DNA of 60,251 bases from Candidatus Woesearchaeota archaeon (lineage in GTDB: Archaea; Nanobdellota; Nanobdellia; Woesearchaeales; JAGLGH01). The stretch lies in assembly GCA_030670545.1 (NCBI GenBank), contig DAOVBM010000004.1, positions 1 through 60,251 on the forward strand, in the 5' to 3' direction. The translations under genes and the position numbers were made by a program. Positions 25,944-35,199 of this stretch are shown here, in pieces; within the stretch, counting starts at the first letter, position 1; each line of letters starts with the position of its first letter. The notes under the pieces are model-generated. The model worked only from the letters and a program-made list of their open reading frames with translations, made no database searches and had not been told where the DNA came from.

Positions 25944-26846
25944 TTATAAGGAAACCCTCATAAAGTCTTCGGCGCATATTGTATTATCAAATACATCACG
26001 CGCATCTTCCTCTATATCTTGTATGTTTTTGTATCTTTGGCTAAAATGCGTAAGGATAAGTTTTTTTGCTCTGGATTGGCTTGCCAGCAATCCTGCCTGT
26101 TTTGCAGTCATGTGGTGATATTTTTCTGCTTTGTTTTGCAGCGATGACTCATATGCAGCTTCTGAAATAAGGATGTCTGCATTTTCTGCAAGAAGAACAG
26201 CACCCTTGCATGGAACAGTATCTGCAATATAAGTTATCTTTCTGCCATTTACAATGTATGTCGCTTCATCAGCATTGATTGATTTTCCCTTTATTTTTAT
26301 ATCCTTTCCCGACTGCAGATCTTTCATGTGCGGGCCCGTAGGGATATTATGCTTTGTGAGAAAAGCTTTGTTTATCCTTCGCTTGTCTTTTTCAATAAAT
26401 GAGTACCCTAAGCAAGGCACTTTATGGGACAATTCAGCAGAGTCTATATAAAAATCATCATCTTCATATACTTTTTTTATTTTTCCTTTTGGATCAATCT
26501 CTTTTATTTTAAGGTTAATCCTTTGGTCAAAAAGACAGGAATTAAGGAGATGATGCATCATTTTTTTTGTTCCTACAGGACCATATATCCTAATAGTTGG
26601 GGGATTTTCATCATTTCCTATGGTCTGAATAAGCCCTATAATTCCTGATATGTGATCGCCATGCCAATGGCTGATAAGTATTTTTGTCACTCTTGTTCTC
26701 CTTATTCCACAGATATTCATCTGCCTTTGTGTACCCTCGCCGCAATCAAACAATATCCCTTCTTTCTTATAACTCAAAAACATTCCAGAGACGTTCCTTT
26801 GCTTTGTTGGAACCATACAACTTGTGCCTAAAAATGTTAATTGCAT
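25944..26846 (-). CDS. rnz: ribonuclease Z
   Basis: Metallo-beta-lactamase fold with SHWHGDH and MQLTFLGTS...LFDCGEGTQRQ, typical of the short form of RNase Z. Confidence 0.9.
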   Translation of the reverse strand: MQLTFLGTSCMVPTKQRNVSGMFLSYKKEGILFDCGEGTQRQMNICGIRRTRVTKILISHWHGDHISGIIGLIQTIGNDENPPTIRIYGPVGTKKMMHHLLNSCLFDQRINLKIKEIDPKGKIKKVYEDDDFYIDSAELSHKVPCLGYSFIEKDKRRINKAFLTKHNIPTGPHMKDLQSGKDIKIKGKSINADEATYIVNGRKITYIADTVPCKGAVLLAENADILISEAAYESSLQNKAEKYHHMTAKQAGLLASQSRAKKLILTHFSQRYKNIQDIEEDARDVFDNTICAEDFMRVSL

Positions 26847-27006
26847 AATTGATTGTATTATCTTAATTTATATAAACTTTTGTTTATTTTAGGATTATCT
26901 TACAATATTGAAAATAAAAACAATATCAAGTTTATAATGGTTAAGTTTTTAAGTGATAAGCAATTAATTTAGATTATTCAGAGATATATAAAATTATGAA
27001 ATTAAA

Positions 27007-27624
27007 ATGAGAAAATCAAAATTATCAAAACAAAAAAAGAAAAAAACCTCAAAGAAAGAAGATAAAAAAGAGGAGATAGCGCAGAAAACTCACAAAAGAG
27101 AAGTAGTCAAAGCATTTTTTATAAAAGAAAGAGTAATTACCGAATTAAGTGATGCTGCAAGGGAATTATATAACCATAGCAGATATGGATCAATAATTGA
27201 AGGTGGCAATGTCCGGCTTTCGCTTCTTGAATCTTTTTTTCTGCTTGAGAAGGGGAAAATAACTATATTTGATGGAAGGAATAAAAAAATAAGCAATGAA
27301 CTTTTTATCAGAAAAGCAAAAAAGCTGGAACCCAAATTCTGGATAAGATATTGCGTGTTCAGGGATTTCAGGAACAGAGGGTATATAATAAAGACAGCGC
27401 TTAAATTTGGGGCAGACTTTAGAGTATATGAAAGAGGAGTAAAGCCTGGAGAAGACCATGCAAAGTGGATAATATATCCAGTACACGAAGCAAGCACGCT
27501 TACATGGCATGAATTTTCAGCAAAGAACAGAGTCGCACACAGCACAAAGAAAAGGCTTATGATAGGAGTTGTAGACGATGAAGGGGATGTCACATATTAT
27601 GAGATAAGATGGATGAGGCCGTAA
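27007..27624 (+). CDS. endA: tRNA-splicing endonuclease EndA with Lys-rich N-terminal extension
   Basis: Catalytic C-terminal domain GADFRVYERG....HAKWIIYPV. The first ~35 aa are MRKSKLSKQKKKKTSKKEDKKEE. Confidence 0.85.
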   Translation: MRKSKLSKQKKKKTSKKEDKKEEIAQKTHKREVVKAFFIKERVITELSDAARELYNHSRYGSIIEGGNVRLSLLESFFLLEKGKITIFDGRNKKISNELFIRKAKKLEPKFWIRYCVFRDFRNRGYIIKTALKFGADFRVYERGVKPGEDHAKWIIYPVHEASTLTWHEFSAKNRVAHSTKKRLMIGVVDDEGDVTYYEIRWMRP

Positions 27625-27869: not shown

Positions 27870-28835
27870 ATGGACATCAGAGATAGAATCCTCCAGCTCA
27901 TACAGGAAAAAGGCCCAGTGATTCCAGTACAGATAGCAAAAGAAATAAATTCAAGCATCCTGCTGACTTCTGCTTACCTCTCAGAACTTGTCTCCCAGAA
28001 GAAACTTAAGATGTCTGTATTAAAAATTGGAGGAGGAAGTTCACTTTATTATATTCCTGGTCAGGAGTCTAGGCTGCAGGAGTTCGCAAATAATCTTAAT
28101 GAGAAAAACATGCGTACATTTGAATACCTCAAAGAGAATAAGGTATTGAGGGACAGTGAATTAACTCCTCTTATGAGGGTGTCTGTAAGGGAAATCAGGG
28201 ATTTTGCAAAACCATTAGAAGTAATGTTTGACAATAAGAAAGAAATATTCTGGAAATGGCATACTATTGACAATAAAGAGGCAGAGCAGGTAATCAAGCA
28301 GAAGCTGAACACCTCACTACCAATAGCAGAAACAGAAAACCACAAAAAGGAAACAAAAGAAAATAAAGCAGAAAAAGTAGAGAAAAAAGAGAATGTGCAA
28401 AAAAAATCAGCAGAATCTCAAAAGCAACCAATAGAAAGGCAGGAAAAGCTTCCACAAGAAAAGAAAACAACAGTTGATGTACAACAGGATCAAAGCAGTA
28501 TCACTATGTGGCAGAACGCAGACAGTCCATTCATAAGAAAGATAAAGAATTATATTAATATAAAGAATATTAAGCTAAGTGAAGTGAATATAAACAGGAA
28601 AGATTCAGACATAGAATTAATAATGAATATTGAATCTTCAATAGGCGAAGTTACATATTTTTGCAGGGCTAAGAACAAGAAGAAGATAAATGAAGGTGAT
28701 TTAAGTTCTGTATTCATGCAAGGGCAGATGAAAAAACTTCCAGCCTTTATGATTATGACAGGAAACATGACAAAAAAGGCAAAAGAAATGCTTGCAACAG
28801 AACTCAAGGGTCTTTCTGTTGTCAGGATAGAATAA
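27870..28835 (+). CDS. winged-helix protein with Lys/Glu-rich linker and C-terminal Mrr-cat/PD-(D/E)xK-like domain (catalytic residues uncertain)
   Basis: N-terminal wH (ILQLIQEKGPVIPVQIAKEIN..YLSELV), a second wH-like segment and a low-complexity linker. The C-terminus DIELIMN...VTYFCRAKNKKKINEGDLSSVFMQ....AFMIMTGNMTKKAKEMLA...LSVV follows the Mrr catalytic-domain layout, but RAK replaces (E/Q)xK. Confidence 0.45.
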   Translation: MDIRDRILQLIQEKGPVIPVQIAKEINSSILLTSAYLSELVSQKKLKMSVLKIGGGSSLYYIPGQESRLQEFANNLNEKNMRTFEYLKENKVLRDSELTPLMRVSVREIRDFAKPLEVMFDNKKEIFWKWHTIDNKEAEQVIKQKLNTSLPIAETENHKKETKENKAEKVEKKENVQKKSAESQKQPIERQEKLPQEKKTTVDVQQDQSSITMWQNADSPFIRKIKNYINIKNIKLSEVNINRKDSDIELIMNIESSIGEVTYFCRAKNKKKINEGDLSSVFMQGQMKKLPAFMIMTGNMTKKAKEMLATELKGLSVVRIE

Positions 28836-28923: not shown

Positions 28924-29958
28924 ATGGGAGTTTCAATAACAGGGTTGCTGCCTTCAAAGAACATAAGGCTTGATGATATCAATGGAAAGATCATAGCAGT
29001 AGATGCACCATTATTCCTGTACCAGTTCATTTCTACAATCAGGCAGAGAGATGGTACACCTCTTATGGATTCCAAAGGAAGGGTAACAAGCCATTTGATT
29101 GGATTGTTCAACAGGACAATAAAGATGCTTGAAAAGGGAATAAAGCCAATTTTTGTGTTTGATGGAAAAGCGCCTGAACTTAAGAAAAAAGAGCAGGAGA
29201 GGCGCGCGCTGCTGAAGGAAGAAGCTAAAATAAAATATACGAAGGCCATTTCAGAAGAAGATATACTGTCTATGAAAAAGTATGCTATGCGCACATCAAA
29301 ATTGACGCCAGAGATGATTAAAGAATCAAAAGAGCTCCTTGCTGCAATGGGTGTCCCCATAATCCAGGCACCATCAGAAGGAGAAGCACAGGCATCATAT
29401 CTTGTAAAGAAAGGAGATGCATATGCAATAGCATCATCTGACACTGATTCTTTATTGTTTGGAGCGCAAAGAGTCATAAAGAATCTTGCTATAACTGGAA
29501 GAAGGAAAAAGACAAAATCACTGAGTTATGAGACAGTAAAGCCAGAACTTATTGAGCTTGACAAGGTGTTGAATGCTTTAGGTATAGACCATGACCAATT
29601 TATTGTATTATGCATTCTTGTAGGCACAGATTACAATCCTGATGGGATAAAAGGAATAGGCCCTAAGAGGGCGCTTGATACAGTAAGAAAATACAAAACA
29701 GACTTTGATGCAATGTTCAGCGACATGGAATGGAAAAAACATTTTGATTTTCCATGGACTGATATATTTTATCTTATAAAAAAAATGCCTGTTACAGATG
29801 AATATAATATACAATTTGGAAAAATAAATAAAGGGGAAATAATCCATCTCCTTGTAGAAGAACATGATTTTTCAAGAGAGAGGGTCGAATCCCAACTCAA
29901 TGCACTTGAAAAGCAGGAATCAAAGGCAAAGCAAAAAGGGCTGGGTGAATTTTTCTGA
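28924..29958 (+). CDS. fen: flap endonuclease 1
   Basis: XPG-N/XPG-I motifs (MGV..L......L..L.GK.IAVDA, FVFDG..PELK, SEGEAQASYL, DTDSLLFG) and a C-terminal PIP box QKGLGEFF. Confidence 0.93.
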   Translation: MGVSITGLLPSKNIRLDDINGKIIAVDAPLFLYQFISTIRQRDGTPLMDSKGRVTSHLIGLFNRTIKMLEKGIKPIFVFDGKAPELKKKEQERRALLKEEAKIKYTKAISEEDILSMKKYAMRTSKLTPEMIKESKELLAAMGVPIIQAPSEGEAQASYLVKKGDAYAIASSDTDSLLFGAQRVIKNLAITGRRKKTKSLSYETVKPELIELDKVLNALGIDHDQFIVLCILVGTDYNPDGIKGIGPKRALDTVRKYKTDFDAMFSDMEWKKHFDFPWTDIFYLIKKMPVTDEYNIQFGKINKGEIIHLLVEEHDFSRERVESQLNALEKQESKAKQKGLGEFF

Positions 29959-30824
29959 TGGAATGGTACATATATGCACTGATATCTGCAGTTGCAATGG
30001 GGCTTTCAACAATTTTGTGCAAGAAAGCGCTGTTTGATATGCATGTGATGGAATTCAGGACAACATTCAAGACACTCCAGCTAATCCCCTTAATGATTAT
30101 TTTGCCATTTGTAAATTTTGATATCTTGGCATGGCAGTATCTATACATATTTCTTATAGCGTTTATTGCAGTAGTTGCAGGGCTTTTTTGGGCGAAGGCA
30201 GTGAAACACAGCGAGATAAGCTCTGTAAGTCCACTCCAGAACATAAGCCCATTTTTCTTGGTAATCATGTCTTTCATATTTCTTAAGGAAGTGCTGACAA
30301 TGCAGCAGGTAATAGGAATAGCAATCATGATTATTGGCACTTACGTTCTTGAAGTGGACCATAAGATTTCTGACTTGAAAGGACCAATAATAAAGATAAT
30401 CAAGACGAAAACCATACATTTTGTATTCATTGGGCTTGTGCTTTATTCCCTCACTGCAATTGGAGATAAATATATGGTATCAAATATAAGCAGATTTACC
30501 TACATGTTCCTGATATGGATGTTTATGGCAATAATATATAATCTATTTTCACTGATATTCCACAAAGGATTCAAGGACGTGATTTATTGCATAAAAACAT
30601 CAGGAGGGATAATATTTATTGCAGGAATCCTTTCTTTTATTTCAGCATTAGCTTATTTCCAGGCTCTCACAATGACAATGGTCAGCCTTGTTATTCCGGT
30701 AAAGAGGCTTTCCACTTTATTTACCACAATAATTGGAGGCGAGCTTTTCCATGATCATGGCCTGAAGATTAAGATATTTGCATGCGTTATTATTATCCTT
30801 GGCTCATTGCTTGTTATATTGTAA
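29958..30824 (+). CDS. EamA/DMT-family transporter
   Basis: 288 aa with ~10 TM helices in two repeated halves. The start overlaps the fen stop (TGATG). Confidence 0.7.
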   Translation: MEWYIYALISAVAMGLSTILCKKALFDMHVMEFRTTFKTLQLIPLMIILPFVNFDILAWQYLYIFLIAFIAVVAGLFWAKAVKHSEISSVSPLQNISPFFLVIMSFIFLKEVLTMQQVIGIAIMIIGTYVLEVDHKISDLKGPIIKIIKTKTIHFVFIGLVLYSLTAIGDKYMVSNISRFTYMFLIWMFMAIIYNLFSLIFHKGFKDVIYCIKTSGGIIFIAGILSFISALAYFQALTMTMVSLVIPVKRLSTLFTTIIGGELFHDHGLKIKIFACVIIILGSLLVIL

Positions 30825-30830
30825 CTAAAA

Positions 30831-32597
30831 ATGGCAAAAATAATCACATTAAAGGTTCCGTTGAAGGAAATCCAGAAAACAAAGAGGTTACTGGCGGCTA
30901 AAGACTTATTCCTTCGGCATTATGAGATGCTTAAAGACAAAAAGTATGCATATATTCCTATAAAAAATACAGAAGAGGTCATAAGGATATTTAAAGAACA
31001 TAAAATGGTTAAAAAAGACATCAAAAGAATATCCAAAGAAAAAGGCATGAAAGAAATATTAGAATCAAGATTAACCCAAAAAGAGATTGAAAGCCTGAAA
31101 ACAGCTTATGATATGGTTGGTTCAATCGCGATCATTGAAATTGATGAGATTCTAAAGCATAAAGAAAAATTTATTGCTAAGACTCTGTTAAAAACAAACA
31201 AATCAATCAAGACTGTATTGAAAAAAGCAGGTGTTCATGATGGTATGTTCAGGACACAGAAGCTTAGCTGGCTTGCAGGAAAAAAGACAAGAGAAACAAC
31301 ATATAAAGAAAATAATATCCTGCTTAAGCTGGATGTTGAGGAGGTCTATTTCTCACCCAGGCTTAGTACTGAAAGAAAAAGGATAATGGGACTGGTAAAA
31401 GAAAGAGAAGATATTCTGGTAATGTTTTCAGGTTGCGCCCCTTATCCCTGTGTGCTTGCTAAAAATACAAATGCAAGAAACATCTTTGGTATAGAAATCA
31501 ATCCTATAGGCCATAAGTATGGCCTGGAAAATCTTAAGCTCAATAATATCCATAATGTTGTTCTTATCAATGGAGATGTCAAAAAGGTTGTCCCACATAT
31601 ATTCCACTACATTATTGGCCTGAAGTCTTGCGACAAAGAAGATGAGATGGAAACAAGGCTAAAACACCACCCTGTTTTTATGGAACTGCACCTGTTTGAT
31701 TCAGACATATTCAAAGGAAAGCAGAAGCTGGAGAAAACCATCATGGAGTTGCAGGCTAAAGGTGTCCACGTTGGGTTGCATATGCCATTCAGCCATGATG
31801 GCAAAAGTTATTCCCTTGGCCAAAAAGACATAAAAGAGGAACTAAGGATGTTTAAAATCCTGGGGGAGTTATGCAGAAAATATCATATCCAGGCAGTTGT
31901 GCACCCAACACAACAGATAGGGATTGCTGAAGATGAGGATATGCTTATTGAGAACATAAAAAAGCTTAAGAGATATTATGATTATTTTTATTTTGAGAAT
32001 GTTACACATGGCTTGTTTTCAAATGCTAATAACATAGTAAGGATAGGCAAAAAAGCAGGTATCAGGAACATGTGCATTGACACATGCCATCTTTTTATAA
32101 CATACCAGGACAATGATAAGATTAAGAAGCATATAAAGAAGATAAGAAAGCATTTTAATACATATTTTCATCTTAATGACCATGATTACAAAACACATTC
32201 ATGTGAGATAGGAAAGGGGTATATTGATTTTTCAAAAATTCTTCCTTATGTTAACAAAGGGGTAACAGAAGTTTGCGGGAAAGATGAAAAACATCCTAAA
32301 GAGATGATAAGAAGCTATCTGAAAATAGACCATAGCCTGCGAAAGTTTGACAGGATAATTATGCCCCTGCCCAAAACTGCAGAGGAGTTCCTGCCCATAT
32401 CTCTTAAAGTTGCAAAAAAAGGAACTATAATACATTTCTATGATTTTCTCAGGAAAGATGAGTTTGATATTGCAAAGCAGAAGATAGATAAGGCATGCAA
32501 GGGTGCTGGCTTAAAATATAAGATATTGAAAATTGTGAAATGCGGTCAGCACGCTCCTTATGTGTTCAGGATATGCGTTGATTTTAAAATTCTGTAA
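30831..32597 (+). CDS. trm5: Trm5/Taw2-type (Met-10+ like) tRNA methyltransferase carrying a nested xylose-isomerase-like TIM-barrel (AP endonuclease 2 family) domain
   Basis: Trm5 segments: YDMVGSIAIIEI, LDVEEVYFSPRLSTER, SAM-binding ILVMFSGCAPY, IEINP, then ..GDVKKVVPHI // FDRIIMPLPKTAEEFL...GTIIHFYDF...ICVDFKIL. The ~248 aa between the two slashes carry FENVTHG, IDTCH and HLNDHD..H..IGKGYIDF. Confidence 0.75.
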   Translation: MAKIITLKVPLKEIQKTKRLLAAKDLFLRHYEMLKDKKYAYIPIKNTEEVIRIFKEHKMVKKDIKRISKEKGMKEILESRLTQKEIESLKTAYDMVGSIAIIEIDEILKHKEKFIAKTLLKTNKSIKTVLKKAGVHDGMFRTQKLSWLAGKKTRETTYKENNILLKLDVEEVYFSPRLSTERKRIMGLVKEREDILVMFSGCAPYPCVLAKNTNARNIFGIEINPIGHKYGLENLKLNNIHNVVLINGDVKKVVPHIFHYIIGLKSCDKEDEMETRLKHHPVFMELHLFDSDIFKGKQKLEKTIMELQAKGVHVGLHMPFSHDGKSYSLGQKDIKEELRMFKILGELCRKYHIQAVVHPTQQIGIAEDEDMLIENIKKLKRYYDYFYFENVTHGLFSNANNIVRIGKKAGIRNMCIDTCHLFITYQDNDKIKKHIKKIRKHFNTYFHLNDHDYKTHSCEIGKGYIDFSKILPYVNKGVTEVCGKDEKHPKEMIRSYLKIDHSLRKFDRIIMPLPKTAEEFLPISLKVAKKGTIIHFYDFLRKDEFDIAKQKIDKACKGAGLKYKILKIVKCGQHAPYVFRICVDFKIL

Positions 32598-32669
32598 TTT
32601 ACACGAAAAAAAACAGAAAGCCTTGTCCTTTAGGGCTTGGTAAGTCGGATTTTAGGATTTCCATGACAT

Positions 32670-33743
32670 TCATTTTGAATCAATTCCCACAGCTTCTTTG
32701 ATTGACCCTAACCCATCACGTTCTAATAACCTAACCAGCCCTTTATTTATTTTATTAATCATGCCCGGACCTTCATATATAAGTCCAGTATATACTTGGA
32801 TAATGGAAGCACCAGCCTTTATTTTTTCATAAGCATCTTCTGCAGAGAATATGCCTCCAACACCGATTATGAATGGATTATTCAGATTTTTGTATGCATA
32901 GGATATTAATCCTGTTGACATTTCTCTTATTGGCTTACCGCTTATTCCAAACTTTCCAGAAATAAGAGGGTCCCTTTTTAGACAATTGGTTTGCGAAGAA
33001 GTATTGCCTATAACATAACCTGTTATTCCTTTGCTTTCTCCTATATTTAATATATTGTCTAATGACTGGTAAGACACATCCGGCGATATTTTAACAAGAA
33101 TTGGCTTTTTGTTTTTAAAATCCTGTTGTTTCTCTTTTAAAGCTGAAAGGAGTTCATCAAGAGCTAATTTATCTTCAAATGATCTTGCATCCTCTGTATT
33201 TGGGCAGCTTATGTTTATTGTTATATAATCTGCTAAGGAGTATAATCTCCCAAAAGAATAACAAATATCTTTTATTGCTCTGTCCTGGAGAATTGTTGTA
33301 TAATTTGTTGGGGCAATATTTATTCCTAAAGGGATTTTGAAGTTTTTTTCTTTTAATCTATCATAAATTTCGTCTGCCCCGTTGTTATTAAGCCCCATTC
33401 TGTTTACTATTGCTTTTTCTTCTACTATTCTTTCTATTGTATTTTTATTGTCAGCCTTTTTTGGAAGCGCGGTTATTGACCCTATCTCAATGAATCCAAA
33501 ACCAAGACAGTCAAGAAAGTCAGTCAATTCACCATTCTTATCAAAACCAGCAGCAAGACCAACAGGATTGCGAAAATCAATACCTTTCACCCTTGCCATT
33601 AGCCCTTTATCCTGAAAATTATAAACTGCTTTAATTATCCTGCTTACTCTTAGCCTCTTTAGTTTTTTTCCTACCTCTATTGATTTTTTATGTATTTCTT
33701 GCGCATTATAACTAAAAAGCAGAGGCCTTATGAACTGATACAT
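32670..33743 (-). CDS. pyrD: dihydroorotate dehydrogenase (class 2-like)
   Basis: NPVGLAAGFDKNGE, GFGFIEIGSIT, ISCPNT and GVGGI motifs, plus an N-terminal extension as in quinone-type enzymes. Confidence 0.85.
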   Translation of the reverse strand: MYQFIRPLLFSYNAQEIHKKSIEVGKKLKRLRVSRIIKAVYNFQDKGLMARVKGIDFRNPVGLAAGFDKNGELTDFLDCLGFGFIEIGSITALPKKADNKNTIERIVEEKAIVNRMGLNNNGADEIYDRLKEKNFKIPLGINIAPTNYTTILQDRAIKDICYSFGRLYSLADYITINISCPNTEDARSFEDKLALDELLSALKEKQQDFKNKKPILVKISPDVSYQSLDNILNIGESKGITGYVIGNTSSQTNCLKRDPLISGKFGISGKPIREMSTGLISYAYKNLNNPFIIGVGGIFSAEDAYEKIKAGASIIQVYTGLIYEGPGMINKINKGLVRLLERDGLGSIKEAVGIDSK

Positions 33744-33851
33744 ATTTTGATGTAATCACTATGGATTTAAAAATATATTGACTAAAAGTTAGAAACCTAT
33801 ATATATCGCAATGCTATTCCCAATAGAAAGCAACATGCTTTAGAAGTGCAA

Positions 33852-33922
33852 CACTGCAATGATCGAGTGAACACCAGCTGATCCGAAAGGAGATGAAGAA
33901 CGGTAGTAACTGGTGAGCTGTG
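33852..33922 (+). ncRNA. candidate C/D box sRNA
   Basis: Terminal stem CACTGC/GCTGTG (5 of 6 bp). C box AUGAUCG (33859-65), a 12-nt spacer, D' CUGA (33878-81), an 8-nt linker, C' GAGAUGA (33890-96) and D box GUGA (33913-16). C-box position 6 (C) and D-box position 1 (G) are swapped together relative to the consensus G/C pair. Confidence 0.4.
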
Positions 33923-33948
33923 CATAGATTCTATTGATTAGAGGCCAA

Positions 33949-35103
33949 TTACCCAAACATACCCACATATTCTTTATCTTCAACAGATTTTTCTTTATTT
34001 ACCTTGTTTATAGCATTCAAGAAATCGTCCATAACCACTTTTTTCTTGTTCTTTCTTATTGCGAAATATCCTGCTTCTGTGCACATTGCAGCAATCTCTG
34101 CTCCAGAGTACCCAACAATCTTGCTTACTATTTTTTCGATATCTACAGATTTGTCCATAGGCATATTTCTTGTATGTATATTGAATATCTGTTCTACACC
34201 CTCTTTGCTGGGCAGGGGCACATGTATTATTCTATCAAGTCTCCCTGGTCTAAGTATTGCAGGATCAAGTATATCTTTTCTGTTTGTGCAGCCAATTATC
34301 TTGACATTTCCAAGGTTCTTGAATCCATCAATCTCTGCAAGAAGCTGCATAAATGTCCTCTGCACTTCCCTTTCTCCGCTAGTCCCTATCTCTATCCTTC
34401 TCGCAGCAAGGGCATCTATTTCATCTATAAATACTATTGAAGGAGCCTTTTCCCGTGCAAGCTCAAATATCTCTTTAATCAGCTTGGCGCCTTCTCCTAT
34501 GAATTTCTGCACTAACTCAGAAGCAACAATTTCTATGAATGTTGAATTTGTAGAAGATGCAACAGCCTTTGCAAGAAGAGTCTTTCCTGTTCCAGGTTCC
34601 CCATATAACAATGCACCTTTTGGTGGCTTTATACCAAGCTTTTTGAAAAGATCCGGTTTCTTCAATGGAAGCTCAACAATCTCATGAATCTCATTTATCT
34701 GTTCTGATATTCCACCAATATCTTTCCATGATGTTTTTGGCTTCTCTATTATCACAAATTTCTCAACATTGAATTTCTTTGATTTTGGTGATTTTTTGAT
34801 TATAGTAAGATTCTTCTGCTCTGAAAGAACAGAATCCCCTGGAGCCAGTTTCCCGCATTCTCCAGATATTTCGACAAGGAACTCATTTCCATTTTGGAGC
34901 CTGATAATTGCTTTGTCTTTTACCAGATCAATCACTTCACACATTATCAAGGGCGTTGACCTATACTTGTCAAGCTCTCTCTTGAGCTGGTCTATTGTCT
35001 CCTTAAGCAGCCGGTTCTCTAATTCCCACTGTGAATTGTCAGAATTATAATTATACATTACACTGTCAACGATATTGTGCTCTTTTGGGTTTGAGTTTTC
35101 CAT
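33949..35103 (-). CDS. pan: proteasome-activating nucleotidase PAN (AAA+ ATPase)
   Basis: N-terminal coiled coil, an OB region, Walker A GEPGTGKTLLAKA and Walker B IVFIDEIDA. The track start at 35163 is a GTG. The ATG at 35103 has a TATA box ~28 nt upstream. Confidence 0.9.
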   Translation of the reverse strand: MENSNPKEHNIVDSVMYNYNSDNSQWELENRLLKETIDQLKRELDKYRSTPLIMCEVIDLVKDKAIIRLQNGNEFLVEISGECGKLAPGDSVLSEQKNLTIIKKSPKSKKFNVEKFVIIEKPKTSWKDIGGISEQINEIHEIVELPLKKPDLFKKLGIKPPKGALLYGEPGTGKTLLAKAVASSTNSTFIEIVASELVQKFIGEGAKLIKEIFELAREKAPSIVFIDEIDALAARRIEIGTSGEREVQRTFMQLLAEIDGFKNLGNVKIIGCTNRKDILDPAILRPGRLDRIIHVPLPSKEGVEQIFNIHTRNMPMDKSVDIEKIVSKIVGYSGAEIAAMCTEAGYFAIRKNKKKVVMDDFLNAINKVNKEKSVEDKEYVGMFG

Positions 35104-35127
35104 ATAATTGTGATTAATAGAGTTTAT

Positions 35128-35135
35128 TATATAAA
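35128..35135 (-). promoter_or_regulatory. TATA box (TTTATATA on minus strand) for pan
   Basis: Centred ~28 nt upstream of the ATG at 35103. Confidence 0.45.
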
Positions 35136-35199
35136 GTTTTTGAAAAATAGTGGGTATCAGCACAAATTACAAAAGTATAAATACAATATAATTTATTTT

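What the first reader, a model, noticed from the sequence alone, without database searches (positions are those of the whole stretch)
31602..32345. Complete TIM-barrel (xylose isomerase / AP endonuclease 2-like) domain nested inside the Trm5 methyltransferase fold
The 588-aa ORF is collinear with Trm5/Taw2 enzymes through the SAM-binding strand (ILVMFSGCAPY), IEINP and ..NGDVKKVVPHI. It resumes with FDRIIMPLPKTAEEFL...IHFYDF. In characterised Trm5, as I recall the M. jannaschii sequence, these two segments are only a few residues apart. Between them lie ~248 aa with the metal-ligand pattern of sugar-phosphate isomerase / endonuclease IV-type TIM barrels (LHMPFSH, VVHP, FENVTHG, IDTCH, HLNDHD..H..IGKGYIDF). 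There are no stops or frame changes and no intein signatures. A catalytic domain inserted into a loop of another catalytic domain in a tRNA G37 / wybutosine-pathway enzyme is unusual. It could couple a second modification or repair chemistry.
Basis: partly seen in the sequence, partly recalled or inferred. Interest (0 to 1): 0.65.

Follow-up and report, generated by a model that had tools for sequence, protein, structure and literature searches.

The report
TIM-barrel enzyme nested inside archaeal Trm5
A tRNA-methylating enzyme (Trm5) of uncultured Woesearchaeota really does carry a second, apparently active metal-dependent enzyme domain spliced into one of its surface loops; this conserved architecture was not found described in the papers searched, and what the extra domain does is unknown.

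Summary
ORF 30831..32597 (588 aa) is a complete archaeal Trm5 (D1-D2-D3). A loop of about 5 residues between helix αC and strand β4 of the methyltransferase domain is replaced by a complete (β/α)8 barrel of about 245 aa (residues ~256-505, nt ~31596-32345).

It is not an artefact. An independent assembly spans both junctions. More than 120 protein clusters and at least 37 GTDB species (Woesearchaeota/"Nanoarchaeota") share the architecture. AlphaFold models both parts at pLDDT ~95.

The barrel belongs to an uncharacterised family of the AP_endonuc_2 (xylose-isomerase-like) superfamily. The same family exists as standalone proteins of about 260 aa, for example in Lactobacillaceae. It keeps an endonuclease-IV-type multi-metal ligand set and is under purifying selection (dN/dS ≈ 0.11). 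All Trm5 catalytic residues are also retained.

Sister species have the same gene without the barrel, as a clean 756-nt indel. The module is therefore separable.

The best reading is a bifunctional protein: an m1G37 methyltransferase plus a tethered metallo-enzyme, most likely a phosphoesterase. The substrate is unknown and sugar chemistry is not excluded. I found no description in the literature. I rate it a new variant of a known kind, of moderate interest.

The parts
30831..32597 (+). Whole gene: Trm5 with a nested TIM barrel, 588 aa plus stop
   Evidence: ORF list. AF2 on a 120-sequence alignment gives pLDDT 95.3 and pTM 0.86. A Logan contig spans it with 0 differences.
30849..30971 (+). 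Trm5 domain D1 (Trm5_N, residues 7-47), the tRNA-elbow-binding domain in MjTrm5
   Evidence: Pfam PF18093, E=3.8e-7, 30.2 bits against a 22.7-bit cutoff.
31047..31289 (+). Trm5 domain D2 (TYW2_N_2, residues 73-153); contains R141, equivalent to MjTrm5 R145
   Evidence: Pfam PF25133, E=5.6e-18. R141 is invariant in 120/120 sequences. Residue mapping from PMC5113207.
31296..31595 (+). N-terminal half of methyltransferase domain D3 (residues 156-255): the YFSPRLSTER motif (Y173, E181 general base, R182), AdoMet motif I LVMFSGCAPY, motif II E222, motif III D249, and helix αC
   Evidence: Pfam PF02475 at residues 156-256. Alignment to 5yac and 5wt1. Residue conservation.
31596..32345 (+). Inserted (β/α)8 barrel (residues ~256-505) from an uncharacterised family of the AP_endonuc_2 / xylose-isomerase-like superfamily
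   Evidence: Pfam PF01261, 42.8-45.5 bits. AF2 insert-only model pLDDT 94.5. Foldseek TM up to 0.73. Boundaries from insert-less orthologues. hhalign to the standalone family: probability 100%, E=3.7e-58.
31779..32270 (+). Predicted metal-ligand constellation: H317 (31779), H358 (31902), E389 (31995), D417 (32079), H420 (32088), H447 (32169), H456 (32196), E480 (32268). The HxxD aspartate D450 (32178) also lies here. Further invariant residues K265 (31623) and E285 (31683) lie just upstream.
   Evidence: Invariant or nearly so in 120 fusion proteins and in 76 standalone relatives. They align with the HAPY, H, EN, CxDTCH and HxND motifs of Mtb endonuclease IV 5zhz and of MJ1311.
32346..32594 (+). 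C-terminal half of D3 (residues 506-588): β4 with the NPPY-type motif M511-P512-L513-P514 (32361-32372), and β5-β7
   Evidence: Aligns to 5yac residues 261-344. MPLP is invariant. P514 = MjTrm5 P267; P512 = MjTrm5 N265 / PaTrm5a P260.

Best explanation
The gene encodes a genuine two-enzyme protein.

The scaffold is an archaeal Trm5 (D1-D2-D3) that should still methylate N1 of G37 in tRNA.

The short αC-β4 connection of its Rossmann-fold domain has been replaced by a complete (β/α)8 barrel. This connection lies on the side of the sheet opposite the AdoMet/G37 pocket. The barrel comes from a previously uncharacterised family of the AP_endonuc_2 superfamily.

The barrel keeps a multi-metal His/His/Glu/Asp/His/His/(His/Asp/Glu)/Glu site of the endonuclease-IV type and evolves under purifying selection. 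It is therefore predicted to be an active metallo-enzyme. The most likely chemistry is that of a phosphoesterase (phosphodiesterase or phosphomonoesterase, as in EndoIV, UVDE and CbiR). It probably works as an independent module tethered to the tRNA-binding enzyme rather than sharing its active site.

The module is separable. It was inserted into a Woesearchaeota Trm5 lineage and has since been lost (or regained) cleanly in sister species, and it has decayed in at least one lineage.

Shown: the architecture, its conservation, the fold, the ligand conservation, the purifying selection and the clean indel. Inferred: that both domains are active, the phosphoesterase chemistry, and the independence of the two sites. 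Unknown: the substrate.
For: Architecture and reality.

Conservation:
- More than 120 clusters of 504-611 aa at 43-75% identity.
- At least 37 GTDB species carry the insert.
- All 120 homologues have an insert of 242-271 aa.

The Trm5 part looks intact. R141, Y173, E181, R182, E222 and P514 are invariant, and their roles are taken from PMC5113207. The full model superposes best on tRNA-bound MjTrm5 (2zzn_A, TMt 0.86).

The barrel looks active:
- K265, E285, H358, E389, D417, H420, H447, G477 and E480 are 120/120; H317 is 119/120; D450 is 109/120; position 456 is H, E or D in 108/120.
- The same set is conserved in 76 standalone relatives.
- dN/dS of the insert is 0.11 against 0.15 for the scaffold in the least saturated pair.

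Placement in the multi-metal, phosphoesterase-rich branch:
- The insert profile's only significant PDB sequence hits are EndoIV 5zhz (E=3.6e-6) and APN1.
- The wider family's profile hits MJ1311 (E=5.7e-18), then about ten EndoIV structures and MbnB, and no sugar epimerase below E=0.01.
- hhalign of the insert against MJ1311 gives probability 95%.
- MJ1311 is listed as the predicted EndoIV homologue of M. jannaschii. The equally divergent PF0258 is a proven AP endonuclease and 3'-phosphatase (PMC2770678).
- The NCBIfam families hit most often are CbiR phosphodiesterase and Nfo.

Separability: L008 (with insert) and L051 (without) are 81% identical in the scaffold, and their DNA is collinear apart from a clean 756-nt indel.

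Charge: inserted barrels are more basic (median pI 8.3) than standalone cousins (5.7). This is weak evidence.
Against: No biochemical data exist for any member of the family.

Foldseek ranks ketose 3-epimerases and UlaE (TM about 0.72) above the nucleases (UVDE 0.57-0.61), and EndoIV is not in the top 50.

The standalone proteins closest to the insert (P0146, P0160) lie in operons with DegT and class-III aminotransferases. A more distant relative is fused to NeuB. Both point to sugar metabolism.

The EndoIV third-metal ligands (D229/H231 equivalents) are not strictly conserved.

All curated NCBIfam cutoffs for Nfo and CbiR are missed by a wide margin.

The barrel is dispensable in close relatives and has degenerated in L064.

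I could not inspect model coordinates, so the claimed separation of the two active sites rests on fold topology alone.
Confidence: 0.55

Rival explanations
1. The barrel is a small-molecule enzyme, such as a sugar or sugar-phosphate isomerase, epimerase or dehydratase like most PF01261 members. It became fused into Trm5 by chance or for co-expression and has no nucleic-acid substrate.
For: The best structural matches are ketose 3-epimerases, UlaE, YcjR and AsbF. The nearest standalone relatives, P0146 and P0160, sit in DegT / epimerase / Aminotran_3 operons. P0262 is a NeuB-SAF-AP_endonuc_2 fusion. Standalone members also give weak NCBIfam hits to epimerase families. Standalone proteins are acidic, like cytosolic metabolic enzymes. 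Fold topology suggests the barrel's active face points away from the tRNA site (inference).
Against: Invariant H317 and H358 (plus H420 and an H/D/E at 456) extend the site beyond the four-ligand E-D-H-E centre of the sugar isomerases to the EndoIV/UVDE/MbnB-type multinuclear centre. No sugar isomerase or epimerase appears in profile-versus-PDB sequence searches, whereas EndoIV, MJ1311 and MbnB do. Bacterial gene contexts are inconsistent, with no conserved sugar operon.
Confidence: 0.2
2. The barrel is a multinuclear non-haem-iron oxidase of the MbnB/DUF692 (MNIO) kind, or another redox enzyme, acting on tRNA or on a small molecule.
For: MbnB structures are hit by the family profile (E about 8e-5) and by Foldseek (7tcw, TM 0.62). 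From my knowledge of the MbnB structures, MNIOs use nearly the same ligand positions as EndoIV. CbiR, the best NCBIfam match, is oxygen-sensitive (PMC7733943).
Against: Hits to EndoIV and MJ1311 are stronger and more numerous. MNIOs act on peptides together with partner proteins, and no such partner is conserved next to the gene.
Confidence: 0.08
3. The barrel is a catalytically inert structural or tRNA-binding appendage (a pseudo-enzyme).
For: L064 keeps an insert of about 200 aa whose ligand positions are all replaced. The insert can be lost without loss of the gene. Inserted barrels are more basic than standalone ones.
Against: Nine to eleven active-site-type residues are invariant across 120 fusion proteins whose inserts average only about 33% identity. 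The same residues are conserved in standalone homologues. dN/dS is 0.11.
Confidence: 0.07
4. The architecture is an artefact (a chimeric assembly or frameshift read-through) or a mobile intein-like element.
For: None found. Presence and absence of the insert are interleaved in the Trm5 tree, which might superficially suggest mobility.
Against: An independent contig spans both junctions with 0 differences. Hundreds of independent assemblies share the architecture. There are no intein termini and no HINT fold. The insert lies in frame in a single ORF.
Confidence: 0.01

Closest known systems
Archaeal Trm5 tRNA (m1G37) methyltransferases: P. abyssi Trm5b (5yac), P. abyssi Trm5a/Taw22 (5wt1, 5hji), M. 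jannaschii Trm5 (2yx1, 2zzm, 2zzn)
   Same: The same D1-D2-D3 organisation. The AdoMet motifs and catalytic residues are retained (R141, Y173, E181, R182, E222, P514). The model has TM 0.81-0.86 to these structures.
   Different: A barrel of about 245 aa replaces the 2-5-residue αC-β4 loop. The NPPY-type motif is M-P-L-P, with Pro at the MjTrm5 N265 position as in Trm5a/Taw22, although the overall best match is Trm5b and D1 is present. All NCBIfam equivalog cutoffs are missed (216.6 bits against 600).
Endonuclease IV (Nfo/APN1): a three-metal AP endonuclease and 3'-diesterase (5zhz, 1qtw, 10nh)
   Same: The same superfamily and fold. The motifs H-x-P-[FY], H, E-N, C-x-D-x-x-H, H-x-x-D and G-x-G-x-I-D align. 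Seven of the nine EndoIV ligands have invariant counterparts.
   Different: The barrel is shorter (about 245 aa against 285). Counterparts of D229/H231 are not strict. Scores are far below the Nfo cutoffs (11.7-13.9 bits against 244). The DNA-binding loops were not examined. EndoIV is not among the top 50 structural matches.
MJ1311 (PDB 3wqo), an uncharacterised M. jannaschii TIM-barrel protein listed as that organism's predicted EndoIV homologue (PMC2770678)
   Same: It is the best solved relative of the wider family (E=5.7e-18). hhalign against the insert gives probability 95%. The shared motifs are VVHAPF, VVHPGY, LEN, FDIGH and HxHDN..D.H..IGEGxIxF.
   Different: It is a separate branch at about 22% identity. 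Its function is not established in the sources I could read. It is not fused to anything.
Standalone 'TIM barrel protein' / 'sugar phosphate isomerase/epimerase family protein' of Lactobacillaceae, Paenibacillus, Saccharibacillus, Streptococcus and uncultured organisms (e.g. P0296, P0266, P0146, P0154)
   Same: It is the same family as the insert (hhalign probability 100%, E=3.7e-58 over the full length) with identical conserved residues.
   Different: These are free-standing proteins of 245-290 aa. They are acidic and occur in organisms that use TrmD rather than Trm5. They have no conserved gene context.
CbiR cobamide-remodelling phosphodiesterase (PMC7733943)
   Same: It is the most frequent NCBIfam match (8/41 inserts, best E=3e-10; 18/56 standalone). 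It is a metal-dependent phosphodiesterase of the same superfamily.
   Different: Scores are below the cutoff (21.6 bits against 105 for the window's insert). There are no cobamide genes nearby.
Ketose 3-epimerases and UlaE (2zvr, 3vnj, 3cqj)
   Same: They give the best overall structural superposition (TM 0.69-0.73). The E-D-H-E core ligands are shared.
   Different: They have no counterpart of the additional invariant His ligands H317 and H358 (my knowledge of those structures, not checked here). There is no detectable sequence-profile match in the PDB searches.

Membership tests
Archaeal Trm5 (tRNA m1G37 methyltransferase) | D1 + D2 + class-I methyltransferase D3 domain organisation | tested here: met
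   Pfam Trm5_N, TYW2_N_2 and TRM5-TYW2_MTfase are all above their gathering scores. Foldseek gives TMt 0.81-0.86 to 5yac, 5wt1 and 2zzn.
Archaeal Trm5 (tRNA m1G37 methyltransferase) | Catalytic and substrate-binding residues equivalent to MjTrm5 R145, Y177, E185, R186, D223 and P267 | tested here: met
   R141, Y173, R182, E222 and P514 are 120/120 and E181 is 118/120. Residue roles from PMC5113207.
Trm5b subfamily (NCBIfam NF047730 equivalog) | Score above the curated cutoff, and Asn/Asp at the first position of the NPPY-type motif | tested here: not met
   216.6 bits against a 600-bit cutoff. The position is Pro (P512, 120/120), which is the Trm5a/Taw22 state according to PMC5113207.
Archaeal Trm5 (tRNA m1G37 methyltransferase) | m1G37 (or imG2) methyltransferase activity on tRNA | not testable with these tools
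   Requires an enzyme assay.
AP_endonuc_2 / xylose-isomerase-like TIM-barrel superfamily (PF01261) | Pfam gathering score and a (β/α)8 fold | tested here: met
   42.8 bits (full protein) and 45.5 bits (insert) against a 31.1-bit cutoff; 36 of 41 inserts match. The AF2 model has pLDDT 94.5, and Foldseek probability is 1.00 with TM up to 0.73.
Endonuclease IV (Nfo) | Nine metal ligands (E. coli H69, H109, E145, D179, H182, H216, D229, H231, E261) | tested here: inconclusive
   H317, H358, E389, D417, H420, H447 and E480 are invariant counterparts. The H231 counterpart H456 is H in 87, E in 11 and D in 10 of 120. No strict D229 counterpart exists (D452 in 68/120). E. coli numbering is from my own knowledge and from PMC2770678.
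Endonuclease IV (Nfo) | Score above the curated family thresholds (TIGR00587, PRK01060) | tested here: not met
   11.7-13.9 bits against 244; the best E among members is 1e-3.
Endonuclease IV (Nfo) | AP-endonuclease / 3'-diesterase activity and DNA-kinking recognition loops | not testable with these tools
   No coordinates or assays were available.
CbiR cobamide-remodelling phosphodiesterase | Score above the cutoff, and a location among cobamide biosynthesis genes | tested here: not met
   21.6 bits against 105. The neighbours are FEN1, EamA, DHODH and PAN, with no cob/cbi genes.
Ketose 3-epimerase / sugar-phosphate isomerase group | A mononuclear E-D-H-E site, with sequence similarity to characterised members | tested here: inconclusive
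   The four core ligands are present and the fold match is the best. Extra invariant His ligands are also present, and no epimerase was recovered in the PDB profile searches.
Intein / self-splicing insertion | N-terminal C/S/T, C-terminal HN, a +1 C/S/T, and a HINT fold | tested here: not met
   The insert begins with H/I, ends with RK, the +1 residue is F, and the fold is a TIM barrel.
Uncharacterised standalone TIM-barrel family (P0146/P0154/P0296 type) | Full-length profile match and the shared signature K..E..HxP..H..EN..CxDxxH..YxHxxD..[DEH]..GxGxID..E | tested here: met
   hhalign probability 100%, E=3.7e-58, 246 columns. Residue table. An HMM of the standalone family scores the window ORF at E=3.6e-58.

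The most novel reading that the evidence does not exclude
The nested barrel is a tRNA-directed (or more generally RNA-directed) EndoIV-like phosphoesterase. It might cleave or repair abasic or damaged nucleotides, or process tRNA ends, and it would be delivered to its substrate by the Trm5 tRNA-binding platform. That would define a new tRNA repair or quality-control activity coupled to m1G37 formation. By the Rosetta-stone principle it would also assign a nucleic-acid function to a widespread uncharacterised family that includes proteins of Lactobacillaceae and other Firmicutes.
Probability: 0.12. Interest if true: 0.85.

Novelty: new variant of a known kind. Interest (0 to 1): 0.55.

Why it matters
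There are four reasons.

1. It is a clean natural example of a complete catalytic domain grafted into a loop of another catalytic domain. Matched "with" and "without" orthologues exist in sister species, which makes it useful for studying how domain insertions are tolerated.

2. It is the only non-trivial functional clue so far for an uncharacterised TIM-barrel family that also occurs in cultivable, genetically tractable Firmicutes. That family keeps an endonuclease-IV-type metal site.

3. If the barrel is an AP-endonuclease-like enzyme, it bears on how genome-reduced DPANN archaea organise nucleic-acid repair.

4. In practice, public annotations of these genes are inconsistent ("hypothetical protein", "TIM barrel protein", "tRNA G37 N-methylase Trm5"). 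Equivalog models also fail on them because of the insert.

Tried and rejected
- **Misassembly or chimera.** Rejected: an independent contig spans the junctions and many independent assemblies share the architecture.
- **Intein.** Rejected.
- **FEN1 adjacency as evidence for a DNA-repair role.** Rejected. FEN1-(EamA)-Trm5-PAN synteny is just as frequent around insert-less Trm5 (31/40 loci) as around insert-bearing Trm5 (27/37).
- **Standalone barrel encoded next to insert-less Trm5 (complementation in trans).** Not found within ±3 kb in 40 loci. The one exception is L071, where a more distant CbiR/MJ1311-like barrel lies two genes downstream.
- **Bacterial gene context of the standalone family.** Inconsistent. 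It lies next to UDG + Tag in L. kefiri and near SRAP for P0154, sits in a DegT/aminotransferase operon for P0146 and P0160, and shows nothing informative in Paenibacillus, Limosilactobacillus, Streptococcus or Lactiplantibacillus.
- **Single origin of the insert.** Crude NJ trees interleave insert-bearing and insert-less Trm5, and place most inserts (25 of 30), but not all, in one barrel clade. Identities in the scaffold and in the insert correlate only moderately (r=0.61). I could not resolve one insertion followed by many losses from recombinational exchange.
- **Genome scan with the insert-only alignment.** Failed because no stretch was conserved enough.
- **Literature.** Three searches found no paper describing the fusion.
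- **Redundant call.** One search repeated by mistake.
- **Model coordinates.** I could not obtain them, so inter-domain geometry and docking of tRNA from 2zzm/2zzn were not done.
Full report
**1. The observation**

The window contains one uninterrupted ORF at 30831..32597 (+), 588 aa. Pfam finds Trm5_N (residues 7-47) and TYW2_N_2 (73-153). It also finds a TRM5-TYW2 methyltransferase domain split into two stretches, with AP_endonuc_2 (PF01261; residues 300-472; 42.8 bits against a 31.1-bit cutoff) between them.

Solved Trm5b (5yac) aligns to residues 5-253 and 505-587 of the query. The two segments correspond to chain residues 258 and 261, which are nearly adjacent. Trm5a and MjTrm5 behave the same way.

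An independent Logan assembly of the source run (a marine-sediment metagenome) gives one 3806-nt contig covering 30700-32654 with no differences. G+C content is even across the junctions. The insert has no intein termini.

**2. It is a conserved architecture, not a one-off**

A search of 5.8 billion proteins returned more than 120 clusters of 504-611 aa at 43-75% identity with the same Pfam composition. Most come from Woesearchaeota/"Nanoarchaeota" MAGs, on contigs up to 1.8 Mb. All 120 carry an insert of 242-271 aa.

A scan of GTDB species representatives found 566 relatives. Among the best 80, about 37 species carry the insert, including the complete chromosome OY970338.1. About 40 closely related species have an orthologue of about 335 aa without it. 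No assembly appears in both groups.

**3. The insertion point**

Insert-less orthologues read "...GDVKKVVP-KLKKK-FDRILMPLPK...". Insert-bearing ones read "...GDVKKVVP-HIFHY-IIGLKS[~245 aa]...SY...-FDRIIMPLPK...". The barrel therefore replaces or extends a loop of about 5 residues between helix αC (after motif III, D249) and strand β4, which carries the NPPY-type motif.

In the window this is residues ~256-505, nt ~31596-32345.

**4. Both parts fold**

AF2 on the 120-sequence alignment gives mean pLDDT 95.3 and pTM 0.86, with no disordered segment. The insert alone gives pLDDT 94.5 and pTM 0.92, with regular β/α alternation.

The full model matches Trm5 structures best, especially tRNA-bound MjTrm5 (2zzn_A, TMt 0.86, rmsd 3.5 Å). 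The insert matches xylose-isomerase-like barrels with TM 0.6-0.73: ketose 3-epimerases, UlaE, UVDE, AsbF and MbnB.

**5. The Trm5 part looks functional**

The equivalents of MjTrm5 R145, Y177, E185 (the general base), R186, D223 and P267 are R141, Y173, E181, R182, E222 and P514. All are invariant or nearly so. Their roles are taken from PMC5113207.

The position of MjTrm5 N265 is Pro (P512, 120/120). According to that paper, Pro is the Trm5a/Taw22 state rather than the Asn/Asp of Trm5b/c. Yet the best overall NCBIfam match is Trm5b, and D1 is present. The insert-less Woesearchaeota orthologues share this MPLP motif.

**6. What the barrel is**

Within the insert, K265, E285, H358, E389, D417, H420, H447, G477 and E480 are invariant. 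H317 is 119/120, P319 is 118/120 and D450 is 109/120. Position 456 is H, E or D in 108/120.

The insert profile's only significant PDB sequence matches are M. tuberculosis endonuclease IV (5zhz, E=3.6e-6) and APN1. The alignment pairs the motifs as follows:

| Insert | EndoIV (5zhz) |
|---|---|
| HMPF | HAPY |
| H358 | the second His ligand |
| FEN | LEN |
| CIDTCH | CLDTCH |
| FHLND | HCND |
| IGKGYID | LGSGQID |

An exhaustive HMM search of 1.84 billion representatives found 456 relatives. These include about 76 complete standalone proteins of 240-300 aa that begin and end exactly where the insert does. They conserve the same residue set.

hhalign of the insert against the standalone alignment gives probability 100%, E=3.7e-58, over the full length. 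The insert is therefore a member of a coherent family.

Named members occur in Lactobacillaceae, Paenibacillus, Saccharibacillus and Streptococcus. They are annotated only as "TIM barrel protein" or "sugar phosphate isomerase/epimerase family protein".

The family profile hits MJ1311 (3wqo, E=5.7e-18) in the PDB, then about ten endonuclease IV structures and MbnB. No sugar epimerase scores below E=0.01. The insert profile aligns to MJ1311 at 95% probability.

Kiyonari et al. list MJ1311 as the predicted EndoIV homologue of M. jannaschii. They also show that the comparably divergent PF0258 is a real AP endonuclease with 3'-phosphatase and 3'-5' exonuclease activities (PMC2770678).

Per-member NCBIfam scans most often hit CbiR (a phosphodiesterase; PMC7733943) and Nfo, always below the curated cutoffs.

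In summary, the overall fold is closest to the sugar epimerases. The sequence and the ligand constellation place the family in the multi-metal branch (EndoIV, UVDE, MJ1311, CbiR, MbnB). Most characterised members of that branch are phosphodiesterases.

**7. Selection and modularity**

In the least saturated pair (L004/L005, dS 0.32-0.41), dN/dS is 0.11 for the insert and 0.15 for the scaffold. Between the window and L004, the insert's dN (0.10) is half that of the scaffold (0.20).

Across all insert-bearing species the insert averages 33% identity and the scaffold 56%, yet the ligand set never changes.

A crude NJ tree of the scaffold interleaves insert-bearing and insert-less genes. The clearest case is L008 (insert) against L051 (no insert). 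They are 81% identical in the scaffold, and their DNA is collinear through both flanks apart from a clean in-frame 756-nt indel.

One lineage (L064) keeps an insert of about 200 aa in which every ligand position is replaced. It is not detected by the family HMMs.

In the barrel tree, 25 of 30 sampled inserts form one clade. The rest sit next to two standalone groups, the P0146/P0160 type and the P0154 type. The barrel is therefore a separable module that is maintained by selection where present and dispensable for Trm5.

**8. How it most likely works**

What is shown:
- a stable two-domain-type protein;
- intact catalytic signatures in both parts;
- purifying selection.

What is inferred:
- Both parts are active.
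- The barrel is a metal-dependent phosphoesterase.
- Because the αC-β4 connection lies at the N-terminal edge of the Rossmann sheet, opposite the AdoMet/G37 pocket, and because a TIM barrel's two termini lie on the face opposite its catalytic face, the two active sites probably point away from each other and act independently. The barrel would then be tethered to a tRNA-binding platform.

I could not check this last point on coordinates.

Inserted barrels are more basic (median pI 8.3) than standalone relatives (5.7). This is weakly compatible with a nucleic-acid environment.

**9. Context gives no decisive clue**

FEN1-(EamA)-Trm5-PAN synteny is conserved. It is as common around insert-less loci (31/40) as around insert-bearing loci (27/37), so it says nothing about the barrel.

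Standalone genes are found in varied contexts:
- next to UDG and Tag glycosylases in L. kefiri;
- near an SRAP gene;
- inside DegT/aminotransferase operons;
- in uninformative contexts elsewhere.

A distant relative is fused to NeuB. Sugar chemistry therefore remains a live rival.

**10. Novelty**

Three full-text searches found no description of a Trm5 with a nested TIM barrel, or of this barrel family. Both parent superfamilies are well known.

I classify the finding as a new variant of a known kind: a known enzyme carrying a new domain insertion from an uncharacterised subfamily. Interest is moderate (0.55). The architecture is genuinely unusual and widespread in one archaeal lineage, and it offers a testable handle on an orphan family. 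Its function is still open, and the module is evidently dispensable.

Noticed in passing
window 28924-35163; loci L004-L083: The gene order FEN1 - (EamA transporter) - Trm5 - (PAN AAA ATPase, opposite strand) is conserved across Woesearchaeota whether or not Trm5 carries the insert. FEN1 lies within 3 kb in 27/37 insert-bearing and 31/40 insert-less loci.
   Followed up: yes
L064:3001-4542: A divergent Trm5 carries a shorter insert (about 200 aa) at the same site. All predicted metal ligands are replaced (IYLKPSF for LHMPF, LILPLQ for IIHP, LIFYSN for FYFEN, VFYGMK for YFHLND). It looks like a decayed pseudo-enzyme version of the barrel.
   Followed up: partly
window 32361-32372 (M511-P514): The NPPY-type motif is MPLP, with Pro at the MjTrm5 N265 position. 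This is the Trm5a/Taw22 (bifunctional m1G/imG2) state according to PMC5113207. Yet the protein has a D1 domain and scores best as Trm5b. The subfamily, and a possible role in wyosine synthesis, are unresolved.
   Followed up: partly
loci L007, L009, L017-L019, L023, L024, L026, L028-L030, L032, L034, L038; proteins P0005, P0009 and others: Many insert-bearing homologues are 513-555 aa long and match the query only from residue ~67-81. They appear to lack the D1 domain, or have a very divergent one, or have a miscalled start.
   Followed up: no
L071:5286-6044 (+): In one genome with an insert-less Trm5, a CbiR/MJ1311-like TIM barrel of 252 aa lies two genes downstream of Trm5 on the same strand, after a 273-aa methyltransferase. 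It scores NCBIfam CbiR E=8e-21 and family HMM E=2.4e-11. This is a single instance.
   Followed up: partly
L084:7001-10062 (Lentilactobacillus kefiri OZ061239.1); L093:2034-5170: The standalone family member in L. kefiri is followed on the same strand by YkuD, a UDG-family glycosylase and a 3-methyladenine glycosylase (Tag). The P0154 member lies 1.8 kb from an SRAP (abasic-site-binding) gene. These are anecdotal links to base-excision repair and are not conserved in other genomes.
   Followed up: partly
protein P0262 (503 aa): A distant relative of the barrel is fused C-terminally to NeuB (sialic-acid-synthase family) and SAF domains. This points to sugar chemistry for that branch.
   Followed up: no
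window 25944-27624: About 4 kb upstream lie an MBL-fold protein (Lactamase_B_2, minus strand) and the tRNA-splicing endonuclease EndA (plus strand). The same pair precedes FEN1-EamA-Trm5 in locus L001.
   Followed up: no
window 1-60251: ARAGORN finds no tRNA gene in the whole 60-kb window.
   Followed up: no
window 32597-32670: Immediately after the stop codon the Logan contig graph fragments into many short pieces with higher depth (81-139 against 14.5). This suggests a short repeated or strain-variable intergenic sequence. It does not affect the ORF.
   Followed up: no
window 27870-28835 (+): A 321-aa ORF between EndA and FEN1 has no Pfam match at E<=1e-5.
   Followed up: no
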